Sequence record: PZ379542.1
Direction: 5' to 3' (one strand)
Length of the DNA stretch: 47,750 nt
Source of the DNA: a phage
Under the pieces are notes generated by a model that worked only from the letters and a program-made list of their open reading frames with translations, did no database searches and was not told the DNA's origin. Positions within the stretch are counted from its first letter, which is position 1; each line of letters opens with the position of its first letter. Shown piece by piece: positions 6,024 to 25,241 of this stretch. Position numbers and translations under genes: made by a program.

Positions 6024-6069
6024 AATGATATCTCATCCTTGAGATTTGTCTTTAGCAATTGGTGCTATT
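6024..6069 (-). promoter_or_regulatory. palindrome-containing promoter cassette (AATAGCACnnnTTGCTAAA + extended -10)
   Basis: Minus-strand motif aaatagcaccaattgctaaa; -10 tatcat at conserved spacing; ccattgaaacga leader; upstream of lipoprotein gene. Confidence 0.6.
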
Positions 6070-6741
6070 TGCTATGAAGACTGCTTTTGCAAAACCGCGA
6101 GGAGTTAGACTGTGAATTACCTTTGTCTTCTTACTCTTCCCACCAAGCTTCTTGTATTGGTCAGAGAATCCATCGTTAACGTCCACAGGAATCGCCTCTG
6201 GCCATTTAAACCCATTGCCATACCAAATGCATGTCTTCTTGGGATATGCGTCTTTTGTCTTTATTAGGTCGCTAAAAAACGGGTGTAAATCATCTTCCGG
6301 CAAATAGCCTCCGTATTCATATGGGTGGAAAGTCTTATTAGGCTTTCTCCAGAGTGATGACAGTACGCTGATTGGATTCTCAATCATGTATGGGACTTCG
6401 TACTTATTAGCCAAGTTAAAAGCAACTTTACATGTTTCCGCAGCTTCAATCTGGAAGTTATGGTTAACCAGTCGCTTTCGCTCAAAGTGCCTTGACCCGC
6501 TCACGGCTAAATCCGTACACGGCGGGAACGCTAAAATGATATCAGGCTTCACATCAAAGTCGAAGTTGCCATCTATCCAGGCATTAACGTAGGTGATGTT
6601 CTCATGTTCAAATTTTGCATTTAAATCCCCGCAACTACCGTGGTCAGACTCATCAAAGTTGAAACAGTAGCACTCGTGACCAGCTTCGGCCCAATCTTTC
6701 ACAGCCAGCCCTGAACCATCAAATAAAGACCAGATAACCAT
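6052..6741 (-). CDS. DNA (cytosine-5) methyltransferase-like protein
   Basis: Motif I-like SLFDGSG, motif IV-like FPPCTDLAVSG, motif VI-like MIENP; ATG at 6741 with GAGAGAGG RBS; C-terminus NSTNC encoded by the repeat motif. Confidence 0.65.
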   Translation of the reverse strand: MVIWSLFDGSGLAVKDWAEAGHECYCFNFDESDHGSCGDLNAKFEHENITYVNAWIDGNFDFDVKPDIILAFPPCTDLAVSGSRHFERKRLVNHNFQIEAAETCKVAFNLANKYEVPYMIENPISVLSSLWRKPNKTFHPYEYGGYLPEDDLHPFFSDLIKTKDAYPKKTCIWYGNGFKWPEAIPVDVNDGFSDQYKKLGGKSKKTKVIHSLTPRGFAKAVFIANSTNC

Positions 6742-6772
6742 TTTGAAATCCTCTCTCGTTTTTTTGTGTGAC

Positions 6773-6818
6773 CAACTATACATGGTTTTGCGGATTAGTT
6801 TTAGCTATTCGTGCTGTT
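6773..6818 (-). promoter_or_regulatory. palindrome-containing promoter cassette (variant)
   Basis: Minus-strand cagcacgaatagctaaa; tgtatagt extended -10; upstream of methyltransferase-like gene. Confidence 0.5.
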
Positions 6819-6904
6819 GGTTACGCGTAACCGATGTAACTCTATGTATACCATATGCATCAGCGGGAAATCGTATACGCCTAGTTACGCTTTGATACGC
6901 CATA

Positions 6905-6967
6905 GTTACATAATAATATCTATATATATCAACCATTTACTCTTATTATTATTATTATATATATTAC
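6905..6967. repeat. AT-rich conserved block, copy 1 (gttacataataatatctatatatatcaacc...ttattattattat...)
   Basis: Near-identical to 26178-26242; (tta)n(ta)n tract. Confidence 0.85.
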
Positions 6968-7282
6968 TGTGTATATCATGTAACTACTGTTCTGGAGTGT
7001 TCCGGTTATAATTTTTATATAATGTGATTTTATACAGTATTGCGTGGCGCATATAACTATGCACCCTCCGCAAAAATCGGTATACACGGTATACGCACTA
7101 TTTACATTGAGCTATAGCTGGGCTGAAGTGGTGAAAAACGTAACTAATGGCAATGTCTACACATAGTTACGGATTTATACGCGTATACTTGATTAATTAA
7201 TCGGTGATACCAATTGGACTGTGTGTCTTGCGTGCGGCATCATTAACGCATCGAAAGCAAACAACAACAGAGAGATACAGAA

Positions 7283-7477
7283 ATGACCTACTACATTATC
7301 AAAGAGAAAAACAACGCACTGTTCGGCGACTGCTACTTTGGTGGCCCAGCCGGATACACTACCAAAAAATCTGAAGCCGACCAATTCGAGACAAAGGAAG
7401 AGGCCAAGGAGTTGCTTACAGGATACTTCACTGAAGAAGATTTGAAAGCTATTAAGATTGTTAAAATTAAGGATTGA
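7283..7477 (+). CDS. hypothetical protein
   Basis: First ORF of rightward operon; ATG with upstream purine-rich RBS. Confidence 0.5.
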   Translation: MTYYIIKEKNNALFGDCYFGGPAGYTTKKSEADQFETKEEAKELLTGYFTEEDLKAIKIVKIKD

Positions 7478-7480
7478 ACC

Positions 7481-8452
7481 ATGACATTTAAAGTTTATAC
7501 GAACGACGAGCTAACCAATGAAGCCTATCACGAAGAGAAAGACCATATCTCTGGCTCTTCGCTGGCTGAGATTCTTGCTACTTCTCCAGCAAAATGGAAA
7601 TTTAAGCAGCGCAGCAACTCTAGCGCAGCACTTAAATTTGGCACACTAAGTCACTGCATGATGCTAGAGCGCGAGGTATTTGACTTAACATACATGCGAG
7701 CTACTGACTTTGACGAAGTGGAAGGATTGATTACTAGCCAAACGGCTTTATCCGCAGCGCTTAAAAAAGTTGGAGTTTCAGGCACGTCAGGTAAGGGATA
7801 TAGCGAGCTCGTGGAGATGATGTATAAATCTGGTGAGGATTGGCCTGTTAAATGGTTAATTGAGCAGCAGGAGAGCGCTGAGGCGTTAATTAGTGGCAAA
7901 GAGCTCGTTACTGCGAAAGATTACGATAAGGTAATCTCAATGCGCGAGGTTCTGACTAATATCCCAGCTTACGATGCGATTATTAACTCACCAACAGCAC
8001 AGAAAGAGCTATCAATCTTTGGTGAGATTCTTGGGTGTGGTGTTAAGGTTAGGCTTGATCACGTGGATGTTGTTGATGGCGTGGTTTTCATTACTGACTA
8101 CAAGACGACGGCGGACGCAAGCCCGAGAGGATTTGGCAAGTCAGCTTATGACCATGGATACCTGTGCAAAATGAGCCTTCAGCGTGACTTGTTCGTGAAG
8201 GCATTTAACGAGAAGCGTAAGGTTGTGGTTCGACTTCTGGCGCAGGAAAAAACGGAGCCTTACTTACCAATGAGCTACACGCTTACAGATGAACAGCTTC
8301 GCATTGGTCGTTTACAATATTGTGAGGCACTAGCAACATACAAACAGTGCAAGGAGCTTGATGTATGGCCTGGGTATAGCAATGGGATTACAGAGCAAGA
8401 TTTGATGATTCCTGAGTGGGTAAGTAAGCAGTATCAAGAACTTCTAAAATAG
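7481..8452 (+). CDS. PD-(D/E)xK family exonuclease (recombination exonuclease)
   Basis: VRLDHVDVVDGVVFITDYKT D...D/E-x-K signature; adjacent to ERF and SSB. Confidence 0.7.
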   Translation: MTFKVYTNDELTNEAYHEEKDHISGSSLAEILATSPAKWKFKQRSNSSAALKFGTLSHCMMLEREVFDLTYMRATDFDEVEGLITSQTALSAALKKVGVSGTSGKGYSELVEMMYKSGEDWPVKWLIEQQESAEALISGKELVTAKDYDKVISMREVLTNIPAYDAIINSPTAQKELSIFGEILGCGVKVRLDHVDVVDGVVFITDYKTTADASPRGFGKSAYDHGYLCKMSLQRDLFVKAFNEKRKVVVRLLAQEKTEPYLPMSYTLTDEQLRIGRLQYCEALATYKQCKELDVWPGYSNGITEQDLMIPEWVSKQYQELLK

Positions 8453-8493
8453 CACTAATTGCTAAAGACAAAATCAAAAGGTGAGGTATGATT
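8448..8493 (+). promoter_or_regulatory. palindrome-containing promoter cassette
   Basis: aatagcactaattgctaaa; tatgat at -10 position; ctgaaacga leader; motif TAG is the stop codon of the exonuclease gene. Confidence 0.6.
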
Positions 8494-8522
8494 GCCCCAC
8501 TGAAACGAAAGAGAGATAGTTA

Positions 8523-9173: not shown

Positions 9174-9213
9174 TTTAACGGGGCTGCGGCCTCAACATTA
9201 AGAGAGAAAGAAA

Positions 9214-9648: not shown

Positions 9649-9658
9649 TAAAAGATAA

Positions 9659-9681
9659 AGCCCCTTTCGGGGCTTTTTTTA
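9659..9681. terminator. bidirectional rho-independent terminator
   Basis: agcccc-tttc-ggggct hairpin with T-tract on both strands, between convergent SSB and tailspike genes. Confidence 0.75.
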
Positions 9682-12207
9682 TGCAAGAGAAACTCTTGAG
9701 TTTGCAAATATCAAGGCGTCCCTTTGATTATCAAATTCTACAACAAAATAATCAGCAAGGCTTAATACCATACCAGTTAATCCATTGAGGTTAATGTTAA
9801 GGTTTGCAACGCCAGAAACCGAAGCCTTACCAACGCCAAATGTATGAACCCACTTACCAGCTTCTGTGAATACAGTTCCTAATGATGCGCTACCAGAAAT
9901 GTTTATAATACCATCAGCACCGCCTTGAATCCTGTTTGCAGAAATACCCCAAGCATACCATTTGCCGGAAGTTATATTAAAGCTACCATTTATCAATTCG
10001 TACTGAGCCGCACCAGCCAATTCGTAGTATCCAGATGATTGCGAGTGTATACCCCTTGTATCAGAACCTTCACTTGACGACCCTGTTCCACCAAAGTTGT
10101 TCCCACCAGTACCAAAAGGCCTCCTTACTAAAACAGTTCCGGAATCAGGGTTAAAAACTCGACCTTTAGTAACATATCCTCTAACAGATAAGTCAGATGT
10201 ACCCGTTATCTTGGCTGTCTGTGATACCAGTGACTCAACTATAACGTTTGATGTTGAAGAGCCATTCAGGTATGCATCCTTAGCAAAAATAATACTGTTC
10301 GAATCAAGAGAGAAACTTTGGTGCCCATCAGCGTTATCAAACCTGCACCCATAAGTTACAAGGTTTGAATTTGATAACTCAATGTTATTAATATAAGAAT
10401 GCTCAGCAAAGAAAACGGACGTATCGATGAGCTTCAAAACCCTTGGGAGTTCAGCTCCCTCACCTACGTTAATTGCCCCACCAGTTGCTATCGCTTCAAA
10501 CCATACGTTAGACAATCCGCAAGGTGATGTTGGGCAATCTCCAGGTTTATTCTTTAACCTTATACCGCCGCCAGCAGAGGCCTCCATTATTGAATCCCTA
10601 ATCCACCACCCACCAATTCCTCCAGCGCCAGGGTTCGTTGCGCTACTTGTGCTTGTCGCATCTAGCATTACTGAATATTGAGAGATTGTATCTGAGTGGT
10701 ATCCGTATAAAGTGTCCGCTCCTATATGCATTTCGTCATGAGCTTTTGCTCGATACCCGTAATTCGCATTTCTAATACTTACGTTTCTGTAGGTATTTCC
10801 AATGTTGCCAGCATTTTTCCTTATACCAACATCCAGGTCATTGAAGTAAAGCCTATCCAATACAACCCTTCCAGCATAAGGGCCATCCGGGAATTGAAAG
10901 CCGTTATTACCTTGTATTGCAGTACCTGTAAACTGCAAATCCGATAAATGCTTTTGCCTCCAGTGCGGAACCGATAGCGTTGAGGTGAGTCCGGTTTCAA
11001 AAGGTTTAACACTTATTACGGTATTATATCCAGAGCCTGATATGTTCCTGCCAGCAAAGGAGTAGTTATTACTCTCATAAGTTCCCGGGCTTATAACTAC
11101 CGACCCGCCATCGCCAGCGGCTTCTATTGCTGAAGATATTGAGCCGCTATAGCTTGATGTGCTTTTTGAATCTGTATTTAAAATTGATGATAATTCGCTC
11201 TTTGAGTAAACATCAAGGTTGGTTCTTGCTTCTGCTTTATCTGCAACATCAGATAAATTCAATGATTTTTGAAAAGTCTCATTTTTTGAGTAAACATCAA
11301 GCAAGCCTCTTACTCGCTGGGCGCTAGCGTCGCCAACCTTACTTCCTGATGCGACATAAAGAGCCTCTCTTGAATAGTAAGTTTTGTTTGGTGCCGTGCC
11401 AGTCTGAGTTAAATCAATCAACCTGTACGTATTATCGGATCCGGTTGATGCTGACACTTGTATGTTCTTAACACCAGTAATCCCCCTTGATGACTTAACC
11501 TCAATCGCACAAAGCGTGCTATCGGAGTAGGTTATATTTATCACCTCTGGAGCGTTGATCATTGCTGACTTTTGGCATAGGTATCTAGCTCCTGATTTGA
11601 AATCAAACGTATTCCAGTCAAGTTCTGTCAACTGAGGTGTAAACGAGCCACCGATACCCATATTGGCAAGAGTTACCATTGTGCCAGCATCACCAGCACT
11701 ATTAATTGCCTCAATAGTAGCATCTCTCGCTGATGTGGTTGTATCCCTTGCGCTAACGGCAGTAGCGGCGCTCTCTGCGGCAGCAATCTGGCTAGCTAAA
11801 GACTCGGCAGCCCCTGTTACTGATTGGTTTGCTAATTGCTCGAAGCGAGGCCAATCGAAATTATCTTGCCCGATAAATTGCAGCAAACTTTCAATAGAAG
11901 TCTCCTTTGACTGATAGTAACGCAGAGTCTCAGCAACATCCTGAGCTAAACCCTGAACGGTAATGCCATCGTGAGCAAGAATCGCGTAACCAGTTCCGGC
12001 AGGAACAGTTTCAGAATTAGGGTTGTAAACATTAATCTGAGTGTCGCTGATGATTTCAGAGATGGTATAAATTTTAAGTGGACTGGTTTTAAAAATAATG
12101 GTTGCACCTACACGAATAAGTGTAAGTGGTGCTTTCCATGTTGTCCGGACGCCAGTAACCTCGCCATTTGCGGCTAGCGACGCTGTTCCTAAGTCATAAA
12201 TTGCCAT
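9679..12207 (-). CDS. tailspike / tail fibre protein with predicted beta-helix (pectate-lyase-like) domain
   Basis: 842 aa from ATG 12207 (GGAGA RBS); Gly/Ser/Asn/Thr-rich repetitive central region. Confidence 0.75.
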   Translation of the reverse strand: MAIYDLGTASLAANGEVTGVRTTWKAPLTLIRVGATIIFKTSPLKIYTISEIISDTQINVYNPNSETVPAGTGYAILAHDGITVQGLAQDVAETLRYYQSKETSIESLLQFIGQDNFDWPRFEQLANQSVTGAAESLASQIAAAESAATAVSARDTTTSARDATIEAINSAGDAGTMVTLANMGIGGSFTPQLTELDWNTFDFKSGARYLCQKSAMINAPEVINITYSDSTLCAIEVKSSRGITGVKNIQVSASTGSDNTYRLIDLTQTGTAPNKTYYSREALYVASGSKVGDASAQRVRGLLDVYSKNETFQKSLNLSDVADKAEARTNLDVYSKSELSSILNTDSKSTSSYSGSISSAIEAAGDGGSVVISPGTYESNNYSFAGRNISGSGYNTVISVKPFETGLTSTLSVPHWRQKHLSDLQFTGTAIQGNNGFQFPDGPYAGRVVLDRLYFNDLDVGIRKNAGNIGNTYRNVSIRNANYGYRAKAHDEMHIGADTLYGYHSDTISQYSVMLDATSTSSATNPGAGGIGGWWIRDSIMEASAGGGIRLKNKPGDCPTSPCGLSNVWFEAIATGGAINVGEGAELPRVLKLIDTSVFFAEHSYINNIELSNSNLVTYGCRFDNADGHQSFSLDSNSIIFAKDAYLNGSSTSNVIVESLVSQTAKITGTSDLSVRGYVTKGRVFNPDSGTVLVRRPFGTGGNNFGGTGSSSEGSDTRGIHSQSSGYYELAGAAQYELINGSFNITSGKWYAWGISANRIQGGADGIINISGSASLGTVFTEAGKWVHTFGVGKASVSGVANLNINLNGLTGMVLSLADYFVVEFDNQRDALIFANSRVSLA

Positions 12208-12229
12208 TGTGTAAAGTCTCCATTTGTAA

Positions 12230-12276
12230 AGTAGCACTAATTGCTAAAGTGGATTGTATCATCTTTCAGGTATAAA
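12230..12276 (+). promoter_or_regulatory. palindrome cassette copy (orphan or antisense orientation)
   Basis: gtagcactaattgctaaa + tataaa; points rightward into the minus-strand primase gene; overlaps the tailspike 5' UTR. Confidence 0.4.
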
Positions 12277-12294
12277 AAAACCTCCCGAAGGAGG
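12274..12294 (-). terminator. rho-independent terminator (minus strand)
   Basis: cctcc-ttcg-ggagg hairpin followed by T7 on the minus strand, after the primase stop. Confidence 0.7.
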
Positions 12295-13221
12295 TTAGTC
12301 TAGTAATTCGTTTGCCTTGTATATTCTCTTTCTTATGCCTGACTTGAAAAAATTACCATCATTTGGAATTACAATATCAAGATTGCGATCGTCAGCAACG
12401 GCAAGTAAATCAAAAGAGTTGCGAGTACAAGCGACGCGTAACTTGTAGTTCCTAAGCGCATAAGCAACCATTTCCATGTTGTAGCTGGAGTGGCAAACAA
12501 GCACGCAGCGATTTCCAGTAGCAAGATGAACGCGAACACCATCAATCCAATTATCGACCAGATAAGCGTACTCATCATCTTTAAAGGTGCCAATAATAGA
12601 AACAGACTGGCGAGTATAATCTTTTGCAGCATAGCTAACATCTCCATCTTCATTGATAAACATTACATTGCACATATCATCTGATATGCCGTCACTATAA
12701 GCCATAAAGCACGGTACTGCGTGTATTAGTTCGCCTGATTTCGTCCTGCCAACATCAAAACCAAATTCGCTATAGATACCCTCGTATGTACTTAGCGGAG
12801 TTAATTCTACTCTTTCCGTCCTTTCCATTATCTCTAAGCATCTTTCGTGATCAATCTTGGCGCCCATTTTGTATGGTGATGTACGAGATGCTCTTTTGTT
12901 TGCTTTTGATATAACCTCTACTGGAACGAGATTCAGCCAATCACCAAGCGTATCTATTGTTTCGCTATAACTCATTCCCGAGCATTTCATAACCCAGCCA
13001 ACACCAGAATCATTTCCGCACTGGTTGCATATTGCTGCGCCATTTCCCTTTTCCTGACCTAACTCATCAGTGAAGCGAAACCTATCCCTGCCAAAGCAGT
13101 AAGGGCACGGACCATGTTTCTTGCTGAGATTCTCCTTTGTCCATCCAAGGTTCGATGAGTAGAATTCGCCCCACATTCCCTTCATTTTTGCTATCACTTC
13201 GCTCTTATCATGGTGACTCAT
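12295..13221 (-). CDS. DNA primase (zinc-ribbon + Toprim)
   Basis: CPYCFGRDRF...CNQCGND zinc-binding motif; ATG 13221 with GGAGGT RBS. Confidence 0.75.
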   Translation of the reverse strand: MSHHDKSEVIAKMKGMWGEFYSSNLGWTKENLSKKHGPCPYCFGRDRFRFTDELGQEKGNGAAICNQCGNDSGVGWVMKCSGMSYSETIDTLGDWLNLVPVEVISKANKRASRTSPYKMGAKIDHERCLEIMERTERVELTPLSTYEGIYSEFGFDVGRTKSGELIHAVPCFMAYSDGISDDMCNVMFINEDGDVSYAAKDYTRQSVSIIGTFKDDEYAYLVDNWIDGVRVHLATGNRCVLVCHSSYNMEMVAYALRNYKLRVACTRNSFDLLAVADDRNLDIVIPNDGNFFKSGIRKRIYKANELLD

Positions 13222-13245: not shown

Positions 13246-13291
13246 CACTATACACAATGTATAGCGCCACTGTTTATCAATTCGTGCTATT
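13246..13291 (-). promoter_or_regulatory. palindrome-containing promoter cassette (variant TTGATAAA)
   Basis: Minus-strand aaatagcacgaattgataaa; tgtgtatagt extended -10; upstream of primase. Confidence 0.6.
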
Positions 13292-13769
13292 TCCCTTGCT
13301 CTTTATCTTTTCGTGCTGCTTCGTTAGCGGCCTTAATCTTGCGCCATGAGCGACACTCTGGTTTAGTTGCTAGCTCAGCCTCAGTAACAACACGCAGCAT
13401 ATGACGCTTCTTGCAACGTAGAGTTAGCGGTTTCCCGTTACCGTCGAATTGCAGATCTGGTCGGCAGAATGTAGCGCGAAAACCTTCTCCATTTCGCTTA
13501 TAGTAGTTGTGCGACAACTGAGCGCCACGCGCAGAAATCATCCCGCGATCAAACCATTGCTCTACAGTCTGGTGAGATACATTTAACTGCTTGGCGATAT
13601 TGGCCTTCGTGCCGTAGAAATCAAGAACCATCTCCAGACGAGCTCGTAGCCCAGCCTTTACTTCATCTTTCAATACGTAGTAGCCTGACGGTCGTTTGCG
13701 CTGTTTCTTGTCTTGCGTGCGGATGGTTCCGTTATTGCCGTTGATAGTTCGCTTGTCAATTTCACACAT
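13287..13769 (-). CDS. HTH DNA-binding protein (candidate transcriptional regulator)
   Basis: Helix-turn-helix GTKANIAKQLNVSHQTVEQWFDRG; basic termini. Confidence 0.65.
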   Translation of the reverse strand: MCEIDKRTINGNNGTIRTQDKKQRKRPSGYYVLKDEVKAGLRARLEMVLDFYGTKANIAKQLNVSHQTVEQWFDRGMISARGAQLSHNYYKRNGEGFRATFCRPDLQFDGNGKPLTLRCKKRHMLRVVTEAELATKPECRSWRKIKAANEAARKDKEQGK

Positions 13770-13780
13770 CTCATTACCTC

Positions 13781-13826
13781 AATAGCACTTTTTGTTAAAC
13801 AATAGGTTCGATAATTGCTATTATAC
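13781..13826 (+). promoter_or_regulatory. palindrome-containing promoter cassette
   Basis: aatagcactttttgttaaa; ttgctattat extended -10; upstream of helicase; also overlaps the 5' UTR of the divergent HTH gene. Confidence 0.6.
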
Positions 13827-13865: not shown

Positions 13866-14675
13866 ATGCTTCCAGTAGAGCGCTTAGTGGCGAACTTTGA
13901 TAAAGAGAAAATTAAACAGATTCAGAAAGATTACCAGTTTGGAGACATAACGCCTTACGAATTCCAGTGCGTGACATTTGACGCAATCGGTAAGGCTATT
14001 GGCAAGTACGAAGCGCCATTCATCGCAGACCTGTCGGTGTCTGCTGGTAAGACAATTATACTCGCCATGATTGGGAAACGAATGGAACAGCTTGGCCTTC
14101 CTTACATGGTCCTATCTCGCCAGTCAGAGATTATCAGCCAGAACGCAGAGGAACTTCGTAATTTCGGCATCCGTAATAGCGTCTATTGCGCTGGCCTTAA
14201 CGTTAAATCAGTTTACTACCCAACCATAGTGGCTAGCGAGGGTACGGCTGCCAACGGCTTATTTAAGGGGCTTGGTGACTATGTTCCGGCTGTTATCGCG
14301 ATAGATGAGTGCTTAACTGGAGACACGATGATAACCACCGATTCAGGGATGATGAGGATTGATAGCGAAGACCTTATCAATCATAAAATAAAATGCATAA
14401 ACGAAAGCACTGGTGATTACTTCTATCATAAGCCAAAAAGAGTTTTTACTAATGGTGTAAGACATGTATCATCAATTAAATTAGAAAGCGGAGAGGAAAT
14501 AAAATGCACGAGTACACACAAACTTTATTCGAACGGCTGCTGGGTAGGAGCGGGAAAACTTCGTATTGGGATGAATCTGTCGCTAGACGGCTCGCAGGAC
14601 AAATTTACGAAAAAGCTCCTGCGTGCAAGTGTGGCTGTGGTGAAAAAGTTATGCCGCATTCAAGCAAGGGGTTAG
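13866..14675 (+). CDS. SF2 helicase N-terminal part (Walker A, DE of DECH) fused to intein N-terminal splicing domain
   Basis: SVSAGKT Walker A; AIDE then CLTGDT (intein block A) and TSTH...GCWVGAGKLRIGMNL (block B); frame ends at TAG 14674-14676. Confidence 0.8.
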   Translation: MLPVERLVANFDKEKIKQIQKDYQFGDITPYEFQCVTFDAIGKAIGKYEAPFIADLSVSAGKTIILAMIGKRMEQLGLPYMVLSRQSEIISQNAEELRNFGIRNSVYCAGLNVKSVYYPTIVASEGTAANGLFKGLGDYVPAVIAIDECLTGDTMITTDSGMMRIDSEDLINHKIKCINESTGDYFYHKPKRVFTNGVRHVSSIKLESGEEIKCTSTHKLYSNGCWVGAGKLRIGMNLSLDGSQDKFTKKLLRASVAVVKKLCRIQARG

Positions 14676-15449
14676 GCGTACTTCTTAAGAACCCTTTCGA
14701 TTTCTATTTGGATTACAGAACGGGGCATCATAATTCAACCGTCAACCCATCAATGGAGGTTGATGACTTTTTACATCAAAACATTCTTGCGGCAATGGCT
14801 GGTGATGGTTGCTTGATTAAAAATACAGAAAAAGGAACGCATAGGCTATCTTGGAATATGGGAAATAAGGAGCACGCACTAAGCAAGGTTGAAAGGTTTG
14901 CAAAACTAAACCCTAGATACAGGGAGAAGAAAAACCCTGGATTTGGCGACAACTGGTTTTGCGTATCAACATCATGTACGAAAGTTCTGGATTCATATGC
15001 TGATAAGTACGGAAATTCTAAGGATGGTTACGATATTGGAAAGATATGCAGAGAGCTTAATCCAGTTGGTTGGGCTGCTTACTTTGGTGATGATGGTCAT
15101 TGCACTGTAAGCTCAGGGAAGAGGGTTGTAGAAATCCACACCGAATCATTTAGCAGGCGTGAAGTTCAATCAGTAGTTGATGCGCTAATAGCATTTATTG
15201 CTAATGACGGAGTTAAGGTTAGAAGCTATATTGGCGGCAAGAAAAAGAGAGAGCTTTACTCAGTATCAATAACAACGAGGTCGGCACAAGATGAGTTTTT
15301 TAAGAGAATTAGTAAGCACATGGAAAATGGCGTGGAATACAAAATCAAGCAAAATTAAAGACATCTCACCCATTGGCAAGGAACTTGTTTGGGATATAGA
15401 GATGCCTGAGCACCATAATTTCATTGCTGACGGGGTCGTGGCACATAAT
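14310..15449 (+). mobile_element. intein in helicase motif II (DE|CH), LAGLIDADG type; split or frame-shifted
   Basis: Starts Cys 14310; ends ...GVVAHN 15449 followed by +1 Cys; exactly 1140 nt; the endonuclease domain is in a different frame. Confidence 0.75.
14504..15358 (+). CDS. LAGLIDADG homing endonuclease (intein-associated; separate frame)
   Basis: Two motifs ILAAMAGDGC and WAAYFGDDGH about 100 aa apart; GGAGAGG RBS 7 nt before ATG 14504 (alternative ATG 14651). Confidence 0.65.
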   Translation: MHEYTQTLFERLLGRSGKTSYWDESVARRLAGQIYEKAPACKCGCGEKVMPHSSKGLGVLLKNPFDFYLDYRTGHHNSTVNPSMEVDDFLHQNILAAMAGDGCLIKNTEKGTHRLSWNMGNKEHALSKVERFAKLNPRYREKKNPGFGDNWFCVSTSCTKVLDSYADKYGNSKDGYDIGKICRELNPVGWAAYFGDDGHCTVSSGKRVVEIHTESFSRREVQSVVDALIAFIANDGVKVRSYIGGKKKRELYSVSITTRSAQDEFFKRISKHMENGVEYKIKQN

Positions 15450-17000
15450 TGCCACATGGTGGACCATATGGATATCGTAGAAGCTGAAGAGAATGAGGAA
15501 ACATTCGAGCAGATGAGCACGAAGAAGGGTGAGATGGTCTTTAAGGATGGTGTGAATACCGGGCTTCTTGGCACTGGTCGCGCGCAATACACGTTAATCA
15601 TTACCGAAATGAAGCGTCGATGCAAGGAGAAGTACGGTCGCGAACTTCGTATCTTTGGGTTAACTGGTAGCCCGTACCGTAACAACGACCACATTGTAGT
15701 TAGTAACCCAAATGTCCGTGGATTCTGGCGCAAAACTGTAATGCAAGTGCCAACCAGCTACCTTGTTGACTTGGGGTTTGTTGTTCCTACTGTCTACGGT
15801 GAAGTTGGTGATTTGGGCTACGACCTTAGTGAGTTCACTCCTGATGGAAGTGATGGGGTTAAGGACTTCAGCAAGAAAGAAATGGATGCGATGGCTGCAA
15901 AGATTCACGAAAACCAAACGATGACACAAAAGATAATGGGATTTGCTGCTAAGTTTATGGAAACAAGGAATGCTGCATTGGTAACTTGCGCTGGCAAACA
16001 GCATTGCGAGGAGGCGGCAGCCGCACTTCCAGAAGGTGTTACTTGGGCGATAGTTACCAACTCCACTGGTGAGAAGAAGCGTAGAGAGATACTTGAGAAG
16101 GCAGCCAACGGAGAATATAAGTTCATATTTCAGATTGGTTGCCTCACAACTGGCGTAAACTGCCCCCCGTGGGATACAAGCATTATCCTGAGGAAGGTTG
16201 GTAGCATTACTCTACTCATTCAGTTGCTTGGTCGTGGTATGCGTATCCTTAAGAAGAAGCACAAAGAAGCTGGAATGGTAAAAGATGACCATGTTGTTCT
16301 TGATTTTGCTGGAACGCTTGATGATATGGCTGAACTTTACTTCGACCCAATTATAGAAGAGGTACAAGACCAGAAATTTAGGTCAGCAAGAAAGCGTGGT
16401 GATGAGCCAAGAATCTGTCCGGTATGCTCTTATGGGAACTCTCCATTCGCCAGGCGCTGCAATAACGTAATTGACGGGAAGCGCTGTGAGCACTTCTTTC
16501 AGTTTAGACTGTGTGAAGATATAGCGGACCCACAGACCAAAGCTATCATCAAGAAAGGATGCGGTGAGAAGAATGATATTGCAGCTAAGAATTGCAGATG
16601 CTGTGGTGAGATGCTCATAGACCCGAATGCTAAGTTATCAGGAAAAATGTATCGTAAGGGGGACTGGTTGCGAGTTTATGACTTCAAGATTGGGTTAACA
16701 AAGAACCAGTCAGGGATTGTTGCTTCATATGAGGTAATGGCTCATAGTGGAGATAAGTTCCGAGCTTATGAAACATTCTTCCCGGAGTCAGACCATCGTG
16801 TTTGTTCTGTCAAATGGAAGGCGTTTTGCTCAACTCACATCGAGAACAGGACTGAGGCTTTTAGGATTGGCAGATTGCGTAATGCTAAAATGATTATGAC
16901 AAATGCACATCTTTTCCGTGCGCCGCTAAGGATTACGCACCGCAAGAATCAGAAGTCGCAAGATATTATCGCCAACAAATCATTTACGATGGAGGATTGA
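15291..17000 (+). CDS. intein C-terminal splicing domain fused to helicase C-terminal part
   Basis: KIKDISPIGKELVWDIEMPEHHNFIADGVVAHN|C (blocks F/G); then LTGSP and QLLGRGMR helicase motifs and Cys-rich zinc-ribbon-like C-terminus. Confidence 0.8.
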   Translation: MSFLRELVSTWKMAWNTKSSKIKDISPIGKELVWDIEMPEHHNFIADGVVAHNCHMVDHMDIVEAEENEETFEQMSTKKGEMVFKDGVNTGLLGTGRAQYTLIITEMKRRCKEKYGRELRIFGLTGSPYRNNDHIVVSNPNVRGFWRKTVMQVPTSYLVDLGFVVPTVYGEVGDLGYDLSEFTPDGSDGVKDFSKKEMDAMAAKIHENQTMTQKIMGFAAKFMETRNAALVTCAGKQHCEEAAAALPEGVTWAIVTNSTGEKKRREILEKAANGEYKFIFQIGCLTTGVNCPPWDTSIILRKVGSITLLIQLLGRGMRILKKKHKEAGMVKDDHVVLDFAGTLDDMAELYFDPIIEEVQDQKFRSARKRGDEPRICPVCSYGNSPFARRCNNVIDGKRCEHFFQFRLCEDIADPQTKAIIKKGCGEKNDIAAKNCRCCGEMLIDPNAKLSGKMYRKGDWLRVYDFKIGLTKNQSGIVASYEVMAHSGDKFRAYETFFPESDHRVCSVKWKAFCSTHIENRTEAFRIGRLRNAKMIMTNAHLFRAPLRITHRKNQKSQDIIANKSFTMED

Positions 17001-17001: not shown

Positions 17002-17421
17002 ATGAAAATCACAGACAAAGGTGATTACCTCGAGTTCTATGGCGGACCGGTGAAGTCATGCCCAAAGGAAGACGATGAACAAATCTTCTGCTCTGATTGG
17101 GTGAAATACAACTATCCGCAGATTGTTTACTGGCACACGATTAACGAAAATAAAAAGAGCATTGGTCAAGCAAGAAAAGACCAAGCCAAGGGGCTTCTCA
17201 AAGGTGTGTCAGACTGCTTATTTCTGATACCTGAGTCATTGCGTGGCGGTTATCCATTTGGCGCCATAGAGTTAAAGAGGGCTGGTAAAACGCAAGCAAG
17301 CCCAGTTAGCAATGAGCAAAAGTCATTCCTAAAAAGCGTAAGTGAATCAGGCGGTTTCGCAGCGGTGGCTTATGGAAGAGAGGGTTTTCTTGCGGCATTC
17401 GCAGAGATGATAAGAAAATAG
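17002..17421 (+). CDS. VRR-NUC domain nuclease
   Basis: GVSDCLFLIPE...GAIELKRAGKTQASPVSNEQKSF PD-(D/E)xK-like VRR-NUC pattern; start overlaps helicase stop. Confidence 0.65.
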   Translation: MKITDKGDYLEFYGGPVKSCPKEDDEQIFCSDWVKYNYPQIVYWHTINENKKSIGQARKDQAKGLLKGVSDCLFLIPESLRGGYPFGAIELKRAGKTQASPVSNEQKSFLKSVSESGGFAAVAYGREGFLAAFAEMIRK

Positions 17422-17462
17422 CACGAATTGCTAAAGACGAATTGGTGAGTTGGTGTATTATC
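17417..17462 (+). promoter_or_regulatory. palindrome-containing promoter cassette
   Basis: aatagcacgaattgctaaa; tgtattat; ctcatcgaaacga leader; motif TAG is the VRR-NUC stop. Confidence 0.6.
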
Positions 17463-18620: not shown

Positions 18621-19757
18621 ATGGCAGCAGCAAAGATTACCAACGAGCAATTAATCGAAGAACTGAAAAACGGCCTTACTAACAAGGCGATTGCAGAGAA
18701 GTATGGTATGAACATTCGTAACGTTGAGATTCGTCGCAGTAAGTTGGCTAAGAGTGGCTTGTTCGGGCATGGTAACGAAGGCATTAAGAAGCTAGTACCG
18801 GACGGATACTTGGTAAAAGGCACTTCGACCATGATTGATGCGGATGGGAATGAGAAGCTGCGTTGGGTTAAGACTTCAATTGATAATGAGCGCCTTGAGA
18901 TTCTGCTTGAGCAAGCACGAGAGGCATTTTGTTCTGACTTACCAAAGGCAGTTGCCAGTGAGTGCCCAGACATTGATTTTGATGATGACACGATGGCTAT
19001 GTATCCGGTTTTCGACCTTCACATTGGCGCAATGGCTCATAAGCATGAGTGCGGTGAAAACTACGACACTGCAACAGCAGAGAAGGTAATGAATAGCTTC
19101 TTTGATTATGCTGTAGATAAGGCTCCTAAATCAATAAATGCGACATTAGTTTTGGGGGGTGATTTTCTGCATTACGACTCTCTAGAGGCTAAAACACCAG
19201 CATCAGGACATATCTTAGACAGCGACAGTCGCTATGCTAAATTGGTTTACGTAGCAATCCGCTCAGTGCGTCGTGCGGTTTCAAGGATGCTTGAGAAGCA
19301 CCAAATCATTGATATTAAAGTAATAAGTGGAAATCACGACGAAGCTGGGATGGTTTGGTTGCGTGCAGCATTGGCGGCATTCTATGAAGACGAGGAGCGA
19401 ATTACTGTCGACGTAAGCCCAGCAGCAATGCTGATGACAAGCTTCGGCTCAACATTGATTGGTTATACTCATGGTCACCAGATGCGAAAAGCTGAAACTC
19501 GACTTACAGTAATGGCTACAGACTTTCGTAAACTATTCGGTAACAGCGAATATGTCTATACACACTCGGGCCACTGGCATAGTCAGAAAATTACAGAAAC
19601 AAACCTGGGTATCGATGAAGTTCATGGTCAGCTTGGCGCGCCAGATGCCTATTCAGCTAATGGAGGATGGCGCTCAATGCGTCAAGCAGCGGTAATCGTT
19701 TACCATAAGCGTTTTGGTGAGGTTGGTCGATTTATTTGTCGCCCTGAGATGTTCTAA
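18621..19757 (+). CDS. calcineurin-like metallophosphoesterase with N-terminal HTH
   Basis: DLHIG, GGDF, GNHDE, GHWH phosphoesterase motifs; N-terminal LTNKAIAEKYGMNIRNVEIRRSKL HTH. Confidence 0.7.
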   Translation: MAAAKITNEQLIEELKNGLTNKAIAEKYGMNIRNVEIRRSKLAKSGLFGHGNEGIKKLVPDGYLVKGTSTMIDADGNEKLRWVKTSIDNERLEILLEQAREAFCSDLPKAVASECPDIDFDDDTMAMYPVFDLHIGAMAHKHECGENYDTATAEKVMNSFFDYAVDKAPKSINATLVLGGDFLHYDSLEAKTPASGHILDSDSRYAKLVYVAIRSVRRAVSRMLEKHQIIDIKVISGNHDEAGMVWLRAALAAFYEDEERITVDVSPAAMLMTSFGSTLIGYTHGHQMRKAETRLTVMATDFRKLFGNSEYVYTHSGHWHSQKITETNLGIDEVHGQLGAPDAYSANGGWRSMRQAAVIVYHKRFGEVGRFICRPEMF

Positions 19758-19802
19758 GTAGCACTTTTTGTTAATAAAGCCTCAAAGGATTGAGGCAAAA
19801 TG
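19757..19802 (+). promoter_or_regulatory. palindrome-containing promoter cassette (weaker -10)
   Basis: gtagcactttttgttaata; caaaat at -10 position. Confidence 0.45.
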
Positions 19803-20306: not shown

Positions 20307-20861
20307 ATGAAAAAGTTAATCATCCTTAATGCACCCCCTGGTGCTGGAAAAGATACAGTTGCAGATATCATTGTTAATCTTGGAATTTGCAAGGATAAGG
20401 TTTCATTCAAGTCACCAATGTTTAATGTTGCAAAAGGAATACTATCAAGCGATGAGTTTGATGAATTTATTAAGAATTACGATGACCGAGAGTACAAAGA
20501 ATCACCACATGAATTTCTTGGTGGAATGACGGTTCGTGAATTTATGATTTGGATTAGTGAGTCAGTTATGAAGCCAGTCTTTGGTGATGATGTTTTCGGT
20601 AAAAGGCTAGCGCAATCACTTGGTGATGGTTGCTATATCTGTGCTGATGGTGGCTTCGCTAGCGAGATTAATACTCTCATTGATTCAGGGGTTGAAGTTA
20701 CTTTGATTAGACTTTTTAGGCCTGGCTATACTTTTGATGGAGATAGCCGCTCCTACATTCGCGGTGTCTGCGCAAGAGAAATTGACGTTCATGTTGTAGA
20801 TGGTGATATTGATGGAACCTCTGCTTTGGTAATGCACGTAATAAATAGCACGAATTGCTAA
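20307..20861 (+). CDS. P-loop deoxynucleoside monophosphate kinase-like protein
   Basis: LNAPPGAGKDT Walker A; RPG and DGD blocks resemble T4 gp1 as recalled; ATG 20307 one nt after previous stop; C-terminus NSTNC from the repeat motif. Confidence 0.65.
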   Translation: MKKLIILNAPPGAGKDTVADIIVNLGICKDKVSFKSPMFNVAKGILSSDEFDEFIKNYDDREYKESPHEFLGGMTVREFMIWISESVMKPVFGDDVFGKRLAQSLGDGCYICADGGFASEINTLIDSGVEVTLIRLFRPGYTFDGDSRSYIRGVCAREIDVHVVDGDIDGTSALVMHVINSTNC

Positions 20862-20889
20862 ACAATCGCCGGAGTAATCCGGCATAATT
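20844..20889 (+). promoter_or_regulatory. palindrome-containing promoter cassette
   Basis: aatagcacgaattgctaaa; cataat; ctacatcgaaaacaa leader. Confidence 0.6.
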
Positions 20890-20919: not shown

Positions 20920-21093
20920 ATGACTAAATTATACTGCGTTAAAAACAACTCAAAGACACTGCCGTTCACCGAAAACCAGCCGTACAGCGCAGAGTCTCTA
21001 GGTGACGGTTACTACAAAGTTTACGGTGACGATATGACTCACATCCTTGCGCCGATTGATGGCTCTTTGGTGGAATTTATTATCGCAGATTAA
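20920..21093 (+). CDS. hypothetical small protein (57 aa)
   Basis: ATG with GAGGA RBS downstream of cassette; below ORF-track size cut-off. Confidence 0.45.
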   Translation: MTKLYCVKNNSKTLPFTENQPYSAESLGDGYYKVYGDDMTHILAPIDGSLVEFIIAD

Positions 21094-21118
21094 CACATCA
21101 AAAACATAGATTTGCATG

Positions 21119-22305: not shown

Positions 22306-22319
22306 TGGGGCTATTTTTA
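22291..22319. terminator. bidirectional terminator
   Basis: gcccc-gtaat-ggggc hairpin flanked by A-tract and T-tract between convergent genes. Confidence 0.7.
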
Positions 22320-22652
22320 TGCAAACAATTCGTCATCACTCATGTTGGATATGTTCATCATCTCACTGATGTAGTCACTGGACCTACCTTCAAAACTCAT
22401 GAATTCAAACTGGAATGGTCGCTTGCTAGAGTCTTTGGACCAGTACACCCCATTAACTCCATCAAGATAACCAGCAGTTAGCATTCTCGCCATAAACTCC
22501 TTCGAGCAGCTTGATGCAAAATACCTTTCATCAACACCAGCAGCTTTGGCCATCCTTGCACAATCCTTGTGCTTGTAGATGAATCTTGCCAGATGTTGGC
22601 GGTTGAAGTTTTTATATCCTTCGCAGAAATTGTACAGGTCGAGCAGATACAT
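22317..22652 (-). CDS. hypothetical protein
   Basis: 111-aa ORF at the end of the leftward operon. Confidence 0.55.
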   Translation of the reverse strand: MYLLDLYNFCEGYKNFNRQHLARFIYKHKDCARMAKAAGVDERYFASSCSKEFMARMLTAGYLDGVNGVYWSKDSSKRPFQFEFMSFEGRSSDYISEMMNISNMSDDELFA

Positions 22653-22655
22653 AGC

Positions 22656-24239: not shown

Positions 24240-24268
24240 TACTTCTCTCCGCATTGTTTCTGAGCGGC

Positions 24269-24314
24269 CATTATATCAACGACCGCTTATAATTCATTAT
24301 CAATTTGTGCTATT
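24269..24314 (-). promoter_or_regulatory. palindrome-containing promoter cassette
   Basis: Minus-strand aaatagcacaaattgataa; ttgatataat extended -10 (perfect TATAAT). Confidence 0.65.
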
Positions 24315-24470
24315 TAGTAAGATGCAATCTATCTTGTAGTAGTCAAAGTGATTTTCTGAAGATATTTCTTTGTTATATTTAAACTCCTGTGCTTTGAATT
24401 CTTCATCGAAAGCGGCAATCACTTCGCTTCCATCATAGTGTGTGCAACCACTTACAATGTATAATTTCAT
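24300..24470 (-). CDS. hypothetical small protein (56 aa), C-terminus NSTN from repeat motif
   Basis: ATG 24470; stop TGA lies inside the cassette motif. Confidence 0.4.
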   Translation of the reverse strand: MKLYIVSGCTHYDGSEVIAAFDEEFKAQEFKYNKEISSENHFDYYKIDCILLNSTN

Positions 24471-24856
24471 TTGTATTGAGCCTCAAAGTGGTAAGTTTCA
24501 CACAACGTATAAAAGCCAACATCTTCGCTACGATATAGCTGCCAGGCGTTGCCATCTTCATCGTAAATGTATCCAGCTGACTGACCAAGTCCGCTATGCA
24601 TGTTGACCTGGTATCGCTTACCTTCTTTGAAGTCTTTCTTAACGCCAGACTTATGGTTAACCTTTGTGCAGTAAAGAGTTTTGGTTTTAATGTATTTTCC
24701 ACGTTCTTCCAGGTTGATCCATTTGCCGTCTTTTTTGATTTGCTCAAATTCAACTTCCTCAGCGACACCGTTAACCCACTGGTGAATCTTTTTAACGCGA
24801 GCTTTAAATAGCTTGTTGTCGTTGCTAATGAAATTTTTGGTTATCGTAGTAGTCAT
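24467..24856 (-). CDS. hypothetical protein
   Basis: 129-aa ORF, translationally coupled. Confidence 0.55.
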   Translation of the reverse strand: MTTTITKNFISNDNKLFKARVKKIHQWVNGVAEEVEFEQIKKDGKWINLEERGKYIKTKTLYCTKVNHKSGVKKDFKEGKRYQVNMHSGLGQSAGYIYDEDGNAWQLYRSEDVGFYTLCETYHFEAQYK

Positions 24857-25017
24857 TATTTTAATCTCTTAGTTGTCCACATGAATTTGTTTGGTACTGA
24901 TTTGCGCACAATACGCACAACAATCTTATCAAACTTCTGAACTAAACCGTAAATCTTACCATCTATCGACGCCCTGAGAACCGCCTCTTCCATCGCGTCA
25001 TAAAAGTTGTCGAACAT
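24856..25017 (-). CDS. hypothetical small protein
   Basis: Start placed at internal ATG (MFDNFYDAMEE) downstream of cassette TSS; track ORF 24856-25083 would start inside the promoter. Confidence 0.45.
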   Translation of the reverse strand: MFDNFYDAMEEAVLRASIDGKIYGLVQKFDKIVVRIVRKSVPNKFMWTTKRLK

Positions 25018-25048
25018 GATCTCTTGCTCTATTTCGTTTCGATGGAGT

Positions 25049-25094
25049 AAATATACGCCATCCGTGGCGGTGAGTTTTAGCAATTAGTGCTATT
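25049..25094 (-). promoter_or_regulatory. palindrome-containing promoter cassette
   Basis: Minus-strand aaatagcactaattgctaaaa; ccacggatggcgtatattt; tccatcgaaacga leader. Confidence 0.6.
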
Positions 25095-25241
25095 TCTTCT
25101 GGCCTTCTCAATTGCCTTCAACATAATCTCGTGAGACTCAAGCAGGTCCTCGTTAAACCAGTCCCCGCAAGGCCAACCCTTTCCGCTGTAAGCACTAATT
25201 ATTTCCAGATCGAAATAGTTTATCTCAGATGGTAAAAGCAT
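25077..25241 (-). CDS. hypothetical small protein (54 aa), C-terminus NSTNC
   Basis: ATG 25241; last codons AAT AGC ACT AAT TGC TAA are the repeat motif. Confidence 0.45.
   Translation of the reverse strand: MLLPSEINYFDLEIISAYSGKGWPCGDWFNEDLLESHEIMLKAIEKARRNSTNC

What the first reader, a model, noticed from the sequence alone, without database searches (positions are those of the whole stretch)
6052..25241. Unrelated proteins share an identical C-terminal tail (NSTNC) encoded by the promoter-cassette motif
Seen in sequence: the methyltransferase-like gene (6052-6741, minus), the dNMP-kinase-like gene (20307-20861) and a 54-aa ORF (25077-25241, minus) all end ...AAT AGC AC(N) AAT TGC TAA = N-S-T-N-C-stop. 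A 56-aa ORF (24300-24470, minus) ends NSTN-stop. In other genes the motif TAG is itself the stop (8450, 17419, 33596, 13287). The regulatory element therefore doubles as a multi-frame translation stop and sometimes appends a fixed peptide tail.
Basis: seen in the sequence. Interest (0 to 1): 0.5.

Follow-up and report, generated by a model that had tools for sequence, protein, structure and literature searches.

The report
Promoter repeat overlaps gene ends
In this T1/Rtp-like coliphage a repeated 18-base promoter-associated DNA motif overlaps the ends of the genes upstream of it, so its built-in stop codons end those genes and in one reading frame add the same few amino acids (…NSTNC) to unrelated proteins; this looks like a side effect of tight genome packing, not a functional peptide tag.

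Summary
Three unrelated genes (cytosine-methyltransferase-like, dNMP-kinase-like, a 54-aa ORF) end AAT AGC ACN AAT TGC TAA = NSTNC-stop. A 56-aa ORF ends NSTN-TGA. Five further genes stop at the motif's TAG. The motif (AATAGCACNAATTGCTAA; 17 hits vs 0.28 expected) is the 21-nt direct repeat already published for phage TLS and noted there for T1, Rtp and Rogue1. Its function has not been tested. I find it 22 nt upstream of a TATAAT-like hexamer, often with a hairpin in between, and about 76 nt before the next start codon. This resembles the promoter/stem-loop cassettes (PeSLs) of T4-like phages. The tail follows the DNA motif, not the protein. Methyltransferase homologues in other phage types end …AN plus 1-2 variable residues with no motif downstream, and the TLS homologue stops at the motif's TAG. 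54-aa ORF orthologues without the motif end KK or NINGENK. A T-to-C motif variant turns NSTNC into NSTNR. Across 1.3 Mb of T1-like sequence, 410 of 596 gene ends overlap the motif. Thirty protein families carry such a tail in at least one member, and 27 families use more than one register.

The parts
6052..6069 (-). Motif copy AATAGCACCAATTGCTAA. It is translated in frame 0 as the last 5 codons plus the TAA stop (6052-6054) of the methyltransferase-like gene 6052-6741. The -10-like TATCAT lies at 6025-6030 and the next ATG at 5981-5983.
20844..20861 (+). Motif copy AATAGCACGAATTGCTAA. It encodes NSTNC plus TAA of the dNMP-kinase-like gene 20307-20861. A hairpin GCCGGAGTAATCCGGC lies in the spacer. 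CATAAT is at 20883-20888 and the next ATG at 20920.
25077..25094 (-). Motif copy AATAGCACTAATTGCTAA. It encodes NSTNC plus TAA of the 54-aa ORF 25077-25241 (phrog_4548). TATATT is at 25050-25055 and the next ATG at 25015-25017.
24297..24314 (-). Motif variant AATAGCACAAATTGATAA. It encodes NSTN plus TGA (24300-24302) of the 56-aa ORF 24300-24470 (DUF7336). TATAAT is at 24270-24275. The downstream gene is the DUF3987-type helicase gene, with its ATG at 24252-24254.
8448..8465 (+). Motif copy whose TAG (8450-8452) is the stop of the exonuclease VIII-like gene 7481-8452.
13274..13291 (-). Motif variant (TTGATAA) whose TAG (13287-13289) is the stop of the HTH regulator gene 13287-13769. It is followed by an 11-bp hairpin with a T-run that overlaps the TATAGT -10-like hexamer.
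17417..17434 (+). Motif copy whose TAG (17419-17421) is the stop of the VRR-NUC-like gene 17002-17421.
25890..25907 (-). TTT-type motif copy whose TAG (25903-25905) is the stop of the 81-aa ORF 25903-26148.
33592..33609 (+). Motif copy whose TAG (33594-33596) is the stop of the large terminase gene 31977-33596.
6801..6818 (-). Variant AACAGCACGAATAGCTAA. The TTG-to-TAG change gives a stop in the third frame (6805-6807) for the 43-aa ORF 6805-6936. This copy is the promoter cassette of the methyltransferase gene and marks the upstream border of the methyltransferase indel relative to phage AN_ECEAS.
29767..29784 (+). The same variant, AACAGCACGAATAGCTAA. Its TAG (29778-29780) stops the 50-aa ORF 29628-29780 (phrog_22596). 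In AN_ECEAS the equivalent copy is read in frame 0 and gives NSTNS*.
19757..19774 (+). Motif copy (AGTAGCAC...) whose first A completes the TAA stop (19755-19757) of the 378-aa exonuclease-like gene 18621-19757.
27640..27657 (+). Motif copy whose first A completes the TGA stop (27638-27640) of the 61-aa ORF 27455-27640.
28493..28510 (+). Motif copy whose first A completes the TAA stop (28491-28493) of the 47-aa ORF 28350-28493.
13781..13798 (+). Motif copy in a divergent intergenic region with no co-directional upstream gene. It still keeps TAG and TAA, has TATTAT at 13819-13824, and lies upstream of the ATG at 13866. It shows that the motif is conserved as DNA whether or not it is used as a stop.
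15187..15204 (+). Motif copy inside the LAGLIDADG endonuclease ORF 14504-15358, translated in the stop-free third frame (..LIAFIAND..). It lies upstream of the ATG at 15291, which starts the C-terminal helicase fragment.

Best explanation
The window is an Rtp/T1-like siphophage (Drexlerviridae). It carries about 19 copies of a conserved upstream element, aAATAGCACnnnTTGCTAAA. The element sits a fixed 22 nt upstream of a TATAAT-like hexamer, often with a hairpin in the spacer, and about 76 nt before the next start codon. It points in the direction of transcription.

The genome is tightly packed, so the upstream gene usually runs right into this element. The element contains TAG (positions 3-5) and TAA (positions 16-18) as part of its DNA-level consensus, so the upstream ORF ends there.
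- In one frame it ends at TAG, and its last residue is forced to K/E/Q.
- In a second frame it reads AAT AGC ACN AAT TGC TAA and gains (N)STNC.
- In the third frame the gene's own T[AG]A abuts the motif.

The shared pentapeptide is therefore a by-product of a DNA-level constraint, not a selected protein tag. The cassette also lies at junctions where gene modules differ between related phages. That would explain how unrelated genes come to sit in front of the same motif in different frames.

Shown: the overlap, the registers, and that orthologue tails follow the presence, frame and sequence variant of the motif. Inferred: promoter function, and recombination at the cassette.
For: Motif and geometry:
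- 17 copies against 0.28 expected.
- In 125 unique copies from 7 genomes, motif positions 2-8 and 12-18 are 63-100% conserved (all but position 15 at 89% or more).
- TATAAT starts 22 nt after the motif in 89/125 copies (21-23 nt in 110/125), with G at -14 and a conserved CA at the expected +1.
- Start codons lie 58-105 nt from the motif start across the 18 window copies that have a downstream ORF, most at 72-86 nt, median about 76.
- Hairpins are enriched in the spacer: mean MFE -7.9 vs -4.6 kcal/mol, p=1.7e-13.
- The same repeat is published for TLS, co-oriented with transcription and about 76 nt from starts (PMC11447400).

The tail follows the motif:
- Methyltransferase homologues.
- dNMP kinase: NSTNC, NSTNR or TAG stop in different phages.
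- HTH regulator: motif TAG in the window and TR2; plain TAA with no motif in AN_ECEAS and EC3a; DSTDC in TLS; NSIFS in T1.
- 54-aa ORF orthologues without the motif lack the tail.

Family-wide figures (1.32 Mb, 734 copies):
- Of 596 unique gene ends, 250 stop at the motif TAG, 59 carry a 5-aa tail, 57 stop at -2 and 39 at -1. Only 7 read through into the spacer.
- 30 of 152 upstream protein families carry a tail in at least one member, and 27 families use more than one register.
- TAG and TAA are kept in copies with no upstream gene (13781+).

Module junctions:
- The methyltransferase gene is bounded by two motif copies, where AN_ECEAS has one hybrid copy.
- AN_ECEAS has an extra 62-aa ORF ending NSTNC between two cassette copies.
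- One cassette is preceded by four unrelated upstream sequences in four phages, with homology starting exactly at motif position 1.
Against: - There are no transcription start or protein C-terminus data for this phage or any relative in the literature I could search. Promoter function rests on sequence geometry alone.
- A canonical -35 hexamer is absent, and a generic sigma-70 scan is not enriched (45 found vs 43.1 expected). Recognition may need an unknown factor.
- TTT-type copies, which would encode NSTFC, are under-represented among translated copies in 7 genomes (1/17 vs 17/45, p about 0.014, non-independent data). This could hint at some protein-level selection on the tail. However, NSTFC tails do occur in the larger set.
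- Homology breakpoints are enriched at the motif relative to random positions (17/131 vs 4.1). Against a gene-boundary null, a hand count gives only about 32% vs 23%. Motif-mediated recombination is therefore not proven.
Confidence: 0.85

Rival explanations
1. The NSTNC tail is a functional peptide (a degradation, sorting or modification signal, or a reactive C-terminal cysteine) maintained by selection on the proteins. On this view the DNA motif is conserved partly because it encodes the tail.
For: - The tail is identical in all four Braunvirinae orthologues of the 54-aa ORF and in 11 of 15 homologue clusters (a 12th, partial, reads through it).
- TTT-type copies (NSTFC) are depleted among translated copies in 7 genomes (p about 0.014).
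Against: - The same nucleotides are equally conserved in copies that are untranslated or read in other frames.
- Orthologues lacking the motif lack the tail.
- A motif variant changes the tail to NSTNR, NSTNS, DSTDC or NSIFS.
- 27 protein families switch register between phages.
- Most gene ends use the TAG register, which adds no tail (250 vs 59).
Confidence: 0.05
2. The motif is mainly a gene-end signal acting on RNA or translation: a termination context, an RNA processing site, or part of a transcription terminator together with the downstream hairpin. It would not be a promoter element, and the stops would be its purpose.
For: - 69% of gene ends overlap the motif.
- It is followed by an enriched hairpin, some with T-runs that score as terminators (13268-13244 and 25069-25056).
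Against: - Spacing to a TATAAT hexamer and a CA start is rigid.
- The distance to the next start codon is roughly constant.
- Copies with no co-directional upstream gene are conserved across 7 phages (13781+ and its equivalents).
- Only about a third to a half of copies use any given stop.
- A combined terminator/promoter role, as in PeSLs, is compatible with the best explanation and is not a true rival.
Confidence: 0.08
3. Chance or annotation artefact: the small ORFs are not genes, or the real proteins end earlier, so no tail is shared.
For: The 54-aa and 56-aa ORFs are short and have no known function.
Against: - All four ORFs match protein families.
- There is no earlier in-frame stop.
- The methyltransferase alignment runs to the Asn of NSTNC.
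- The motif count is about 60-fold above chance.
Confidence: 0.02

Closest known systems
21-nt direct repeats of phage TLS (aaATAGCACnnnTTGnTAAAA), German, Kropinski et al. 2024, PHAGE 5:173 (PMC11447400). The paper says the repeat is also present in T1, Rtp and Rogue1.
   Same: - Same consensus and same A/T/G subtypes of the middle triplet.
- About 18-21 copies per genome.
- Co-oriented with transcription and about 76 nt upstream of start codons.
- By comparing the paper's repeat table with the TLS annotation, I find that TLS genes also end inside it. Stp, gp06 and gp77 end NSTNC. The regulator ends DSTDC. dmk, gp19, gp62, gp72 and dcm stop at the TAG.
   Different: The paper describes the repeats as lying 'between genes' and leaves their function open (stoperator-like, enhancer site or UP element). 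It does not mention overlap with stop codons, shared C-terminal residues, the fixed 22-nt spacing to a -10 hexamer, or hairpins.
PeSLs (promoter-early stem-loops) of T4-like myoviruses, Arbiol et al. 2010 (PMC2839356) and Comeau et al. 2014 (PMC4122927)
   Same: - Repeated composite cassettes that begin at the stop codon of the upstream gene.
- They contain a promoter with a stem-loop, often between the upstream box and the -10, then a Shine-Dalgarno sequence and start codon.
- They lie at the borders of gene indels and replacements between related phages.
   Different: - PeSLs have canonical sigma-70 -35/-10 boxes. Promoter and terminator activity and mini-circle formation were shown experimentally.
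- Here the conserved box sits at -51 to -33 with no good -35, in a different phage family (siphophages of about 48 kb), and nothing has been tested.
- The PeSL passages I retrieved by term search do not mention a shared peptide tail; I did not read either paper in full.
Stoperators of mycobacteriophage L5 (Brown et al. 1997, as cited in PMC11447400)
   Same: Many copies of a short asymmetric site in short intergenic regions, oriented with transcription.
   Different: Stoperators are repressor-binding sites of a temperate phage that block elongation. T1-like phages are virulent, no binding protein is known, and the fixed spacing to a -10 hexamer points to initiation rather than blockage.

Membership tests
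Drexlerviridae 21-nt direct repeat (TLS DR element) | Consensus aaATAGCACnnnTTGnTAAAA, most conserved at ATAGCAC and TAAA | tested here: met
   17 matches against 0.28 expected. The column conservation profile over 125 unique copies agrees.
Drexlerviridae 21-nt direct repeat (TLS DR element) | About 18-21 copies per genome, oriented in the direction of transcription | tested here: met
   The window has 19 copies at up to 1 core mismatch. 17 have a co-oriented downstream ORF and a -10-like hexamer.
Drexlerviridae 21-nt direct repeat (TLS DR element) | About 76 nt upstream of start codons | tested here: met
   Distances in the window are 58-105 nt over 18 copies, most at 72-86 nt.
Drexlerviridae 21-nt direct repeat (TLS DR element) | Host genome is a T1-like phage | tested here: met
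   92% identity to Escherichia phages ES and AN_ECEAS (Drexlerviridae, Braunvirinae) and synteny with Rtp.
PeSL-type composite promoter/stem-loop cassette | Sigma-70-like -35 and -10 boxes | tested here: inconclusive
   The -10 is present at fixed spacing. The -35 position holds only TAAACA/AAGACA-like hexamers (4 of 6 matches), and a generic scan is not enriched.
PeSL-type composite promoter/stem-loop cassette | Stem-loop within or next to the promoter | tested here: met
   Mean MFE of motif positions 18-55 is -7.9 vs -4.6 kcal/mol for random windows. 47% vs 12% reach -8 kcal/mol or lower; p=1.7e-13.
PeSL-type composite promoter/stem-loop cassette | The cassette starts at the stop codon of the upstream gene | tested here: met
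   410 of 596 unique gene ends overlap the motif.
PeSL-type composite promoter/stem-loop cassette | Cassettes lie at borders of indels and replacements between related genomes | tested here: inconclusive
   There are three clear cases. HSP ends are enriched against random positions. Enrichment over ordinary gene boundaries is not shown.
PeSL-type composite promoter/stem-loop cassette | Demonstrated promoter and terminator activity, and recombination mini-circles | not testable with these tools
   Needs reporter fusions and inverse PCR on infected cells.
Functional C-terminal peptide tag (degron or sorting signal) | The tail is conserved in orthologues independently of the underlying DNA element | tested here: not met
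   Orthologues without the motif have other C-termini. The tail changes with motif variants.

The most novel reading that the evidence does not exclude
The cassette may be a recombination 'adaptor' for gene modules in T1-like phages, not just a promoter. On this reading, crossovers within the conserved motif or leader move [promoter + gene] units between genomes. The stops built into the motif let an incoming ORF be closed within 5 codons or fewer in two of three frames. The motif would then be co-selected for regulation and for frame-tolerant joining of genes. The NSTNC-type tails on about 30 unrelated protein families would be the visible scars of such exchanges.
Probability: 0.2. Interest if true: 0.55.

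Novelty: new member of a known kind. Interest (0 to 1): 0.3.

Why it matters
- It shows how a DNA-level regulatory constraint can dictate protein C-termini. In T1-like phages about 30 unrelated protein families end in NSTNC-like tails in at least one phage, and many more are forced to end in K/E/Q.
- For annotators it gives three practical warnings. Identical C-terminal pentapeptides in these phages are not evidence of homology or of a tag. Gene ends can be predicted from the motif. The unannotated gaps next to motif copies can hide small ORFs, such as the 62-aa ORF in AN_ECEAS.
- It adds a fixed -10 spacing and hairpins to the published 'direct repeat'. That turns an element of unknown function into a testable promoter/terminator cassette.
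- It suggests that PeSL-like modular exchange may operate outside the T4-like phages.

Tried and rejected
- The Rtp genome paper (PMC1367250) and the T1 genome paper are not held, so what they say about these repeats could not be checked.
- Searches for T1-like transcription-start data found nothing useful. A search for 'NSTNC' found nothing relevant.
- A generic sigma-70 scan was uninformative: 45 sites against 43.1 in shuffles.
- Rfam gave only a tRNA.
- My first upstream-frame heuristic mis-assigned genes whose stop abuts the motif. I replaced it with a longest-ORF-ending-nearby rule.
- Greedy gene calling to ask whether TAG stops come mostly from the motif over-called genes (94), so I dropped it.
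- The HSP-breakpoint test mixed several records in one file, and its null (random positions) is too easy. Against gene boundaries the enrichment is weak (plus a hand count).
- I considered that the inverted repeat TAGCA-N5-TGCTA, centred near -42, is the site of a dimeric activator such as the phage HTH protein 13287-13769. This could not be tested, and the 3' half-site is degenerate in TTT-type copies, so it remains only an idea.
- I considered T4 MotA-box similarity (TTGCTA vs tGCTT). I rejected it because the spacing is wrong: 22 nt here against about 12 nt to the -10 in T4 (own knowledge).
Full report
**What the window is.** Megablast places the window among Rtp/T1-like siphophages (Drexlerviridae, Braunvirinae). 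It is about 92% identical to Escherichia phages ES and AN_ECEAS and syntenic with Rtp, TR2 and EC3a.

**Checking the observation.** Direct reading confirms every statement in the finding.
- 6052-6741(-) ends FIANSTNC-TAA.
- 20307-20861(+) ends HVINSTNC-TAA.
- 25077-25241(-) ends RRNSTNC-TAA.
- 24300-24470(-) ends LLNSTN-TGA, using the TTGATAA variant of the motif.

The motif AATAGCACNAATTGCTAA has 17 matches at up to 3 mismatches against 0.28 expected. Its TAG is the stop of 7481-8452, 13287-13769(-), 17002-17421, 25903-26148(-) and 31977-33596.

Two further registers exist.
- A T[AG]A stop whose last A is the first base of the motif: 18621-19757, 27455-27640, 28350-28493.
- A TAG created by the variant AACAGCACGAATAGCTAA: 6805-6936(-), 29628-29780.

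By my tally, 14 of 19 copies in the window overlap the stop of the co-directional upstream ORF. The four named ORFs belong to real families: phrog_757 DNA methyltransferase, phrog_139 dNMP kinase, phrog_4548 and DUF7336.

**What the motif is.** It is already in the literature. German, Kropinski and colleagues (2024, PMC11447400) describe a 21-nt direct repeat, aaATAGCACnnnTTGnTAAAA, at 21 places in phage TLS. It is co-oriented with transcription and about 76 nt upstream of start codons. They report similar repeats in T1, Rtp and Rogue1 and leave the function unknown (stoperator-like, enhancer site or UP element). They do not mention stop codons or C-terminal tails.

My own analysis covered 125 unique copies from the window plus six genomes.
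- A TATAAT-like hexamer starts 22 nt after the motif in 89 copies, and 21-23 nt after it in 110.
- G is favoured at -14.
- A conserved CA lies where +1 would be.
- A conserved leader (AtcGAAAcgaaA) follows.

This geometry puts the motif at about -51 to -33. The canonical -35 position is weak, and a generic sigma-70 scan is not enriched (45 vs 43.1). The spacer and -10 region folds into hairpins far more often than random windows do: mean MFE -7.9 vs -4.6 kcal/mol, and 47% vs 12% reach -8 or lower (p=1.7e-13). Some of these hairpins score as terminators. In the window, start codons lie 58-105 nt from the motif start over 18 copies, most at 72-86 nt.

[quoted passage not shown] Promoter function here is inferred, not shown.

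*Methyltransferase.*
- Among the 120 best homologue clusters the conserved core ends ...SLTPRGFAxAV[FY][LE]AN, followed by 0-20 variable residues.
- Only the three nearest clusters (86-88% identity) end NSTNC.
- The Asn of the tail is therefore the last conserved residue of the family, and STNC is the add-on.
- Homologues in three other phage types (a DNA-polymerase-A/SNF2 context, a NinG context and a T7-like RNA-polymerase context) end ANHV-TAA, ANK-TGA and ANQ-TAA with no motif downstream.
- The TLS homologue ends ANQK-TAG inside a motif copy.

*dNMP kinase.*
- The window has HVINSTNC and AN_ECEAS has SAINSTNC.
- TR2 has DAINSTNR, because its motif copy reads TCGCTAA.
- The TLS and T1 orthologues stop at the motif's TAG.

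*HTH regulator.*
- It stops at the motif TAG in the window and TR2.
- It has a plain TAA with no motif in AN_ECEAS and EC3a.
- It ends DSTDC in TLS and NSIFS in T1.

*54-aa ORF.*
- Most homologues end KARNSTNC.
- Two orthologues whose stop overlaps the ATG of the next gene end KAMKK and KAKKK.
- A third ends KAKNINGENK. None of these three has the motif.

*56-aa ORF.* A distant (38% identical) EC3a homologue ends VKVAI-TAA without the motif.

The tail therefore follows the presence, frame and sequence variant of the DNA motif.

**Family-wide picture.** I pooled the window, six genomes and about 120 stretches retrieved from viral contigs by an exact motif search. The pool is 1.32 Mb with 734 motif copies.

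Of 596 unique gene ends:

| Register | Gene ends |
|---|---|
| Stop at the motif TAG | 250 |
| 5-codon motif tail | 59 |
| Stop at -2 | 57 |
| Stop at -1 (TAA-TAG tandem) | 39 |
| Read-through into the spacer | 7 |

- Tails seen include NSTNC (27), NSTFC (6), DSTDC (3), DSTKS (3), NSTNS, NSTNR and others.
- After clustering the upstream proteins, 30 of 152 families have a tailed member, and 27 families use more than one register.
- The TAG register also constrains the last residue to K/E/Q, because motif positions 1-2 are AA.
- Copies with no upstream co-directional gene (for example 13781+) still keep TAG and TAA. The stops are therefore conserved as DNA, not because they are used for termination.
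- The preference for the register that adds nothing, and the near absence of read-through, fit selection against long extensions in a compact genome.

**Module junctions.**
- The methyltransferase gene is bounded by motif copies at 6818 and 6069. AN_ECEAS has a single hybrid copy there: its upstream flank matches the 6818 copy and its downstream cassette matches the 6069 copy.
- AN_ECEAS has an extra, unannotated 62-aa ORF ending EHLNSTNC between two cassette copies where the window has one.
- The cassette in front of the DUF3987 helicase gene is conserved in the window, AN_ECEAS, Rtp and EC3a from motif position 1 onward. It is preceded by four unrelated sequences, and the upstream ORFs end in three different registers.
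- HSP ends fall within 30 nt of a motif 17 times out of 131 against 4.1 expected. That run mixed several records. Against a gene-boundary null the excess is small (about 32% vs 23% by hand count). Motif-mediated recombination is therefore plausible but not demonstrated.

**Residual doubt.** In seven genomes, TTT-type copies (which would encode NSTFC) are under-represented among translated copies (1/17 vs 17/45, p about 0.014). The data are not independent, and NSTFC tails do occur in the larger set. I treat this as a weak hint of selection against some tails, not as evidence of function.

**Verdict.**
- The motif itself is known.
- What this analysis adds: the motif overlaps gene ends in three registers, it imposes NSTNC-type tails on many unrelated proteins across the family, and it has a fixed -10 spacing and hairpins.
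- All of this fits the known PeSL-type concept, so I rate it a new member of a known kind, of modest interest.

Noticed in passing
window 13866-17000: The Rtp53-like helicase gene appears to be a 'fractured gene' (my term for the arrangement). Rtp53 residues 1-155 map to 13866-14330 and residues 138-664 to 15417-16997. The first ORF continues past the DE of the DECH helicase motif as CLTGDTMI..., with a weak Intein_splicing N-part hit. The third ORF begins with about 53 aa ending ...VVAHN|CH, with an Intein_splicing C-part hit. Between them, in another frame, lies a free-standing LAGLIDADG_2 endonuclease ORF (14504-15358). This looks like a split intein with an intervening homing endonuclease. 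The same arrangement is present in AN_ECEAS.
   Followed up: partly
window 15187-15204: A motif copy lies inside the LAGLIDADG ORF and is translated in the stop-free third frame (..LIAFIAND..). A TATATT hexamer lies 23 nt downstream, and the ATG of the C-terminal helicase fragment is at 15291. The inserted element seems to carry its own promoter cassette for the downstream gene fragment.
   Followed up: partly
window 13287-13769 (-): This gene encodes an HTH regulator (phrog_2856; weak P22_Cro-like HTH hit; orthologue of Rtp52 and T1 gp23). The motif contains an inverted repeat, TAGCA-N5-TGCTA, centred near -42 of the inferred promoters. The regulator is a candidate binder, but this is untested.
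   Followed up: no
L001 (AN_ECEAS) about 29646-29834: An unannotated 62-aa ORF ending EHLNSTNC sits between two cassette copies (29563 and 29817). The published annotation leaves a gap there.
   Followed up: partly
window 12230-12247 (+): A motif copy overlaps the 5' end of the minus-strand tail-fibre gene (9679-12237) and faces a bidirectional terminator hairpin (12279-12296). It is conserved in AN_ECEAS, Rtp and EC3a, but no plus-strand gene follows it. Its role is unclear.
   Followed up: no
L010 and L011 (metagenomic contigs), 401-560: In some relatives the 54-aa ORF is followed directly by a methyltransferase-family gene through an ATGA stop/start overlap, with no promoter cassette between them. 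The two genes that are separate NSTNC carriers in the window are neighbours there.
   Followed up: no
window 30772-30847: A tRNA-Arg (anticodon CCT) was found by both ARAGORN and Rfam. TR2 carries the same tRNA-Arg(CCT), and EC3a carries a tRNA-Arg(TCT).
   Followed up: no
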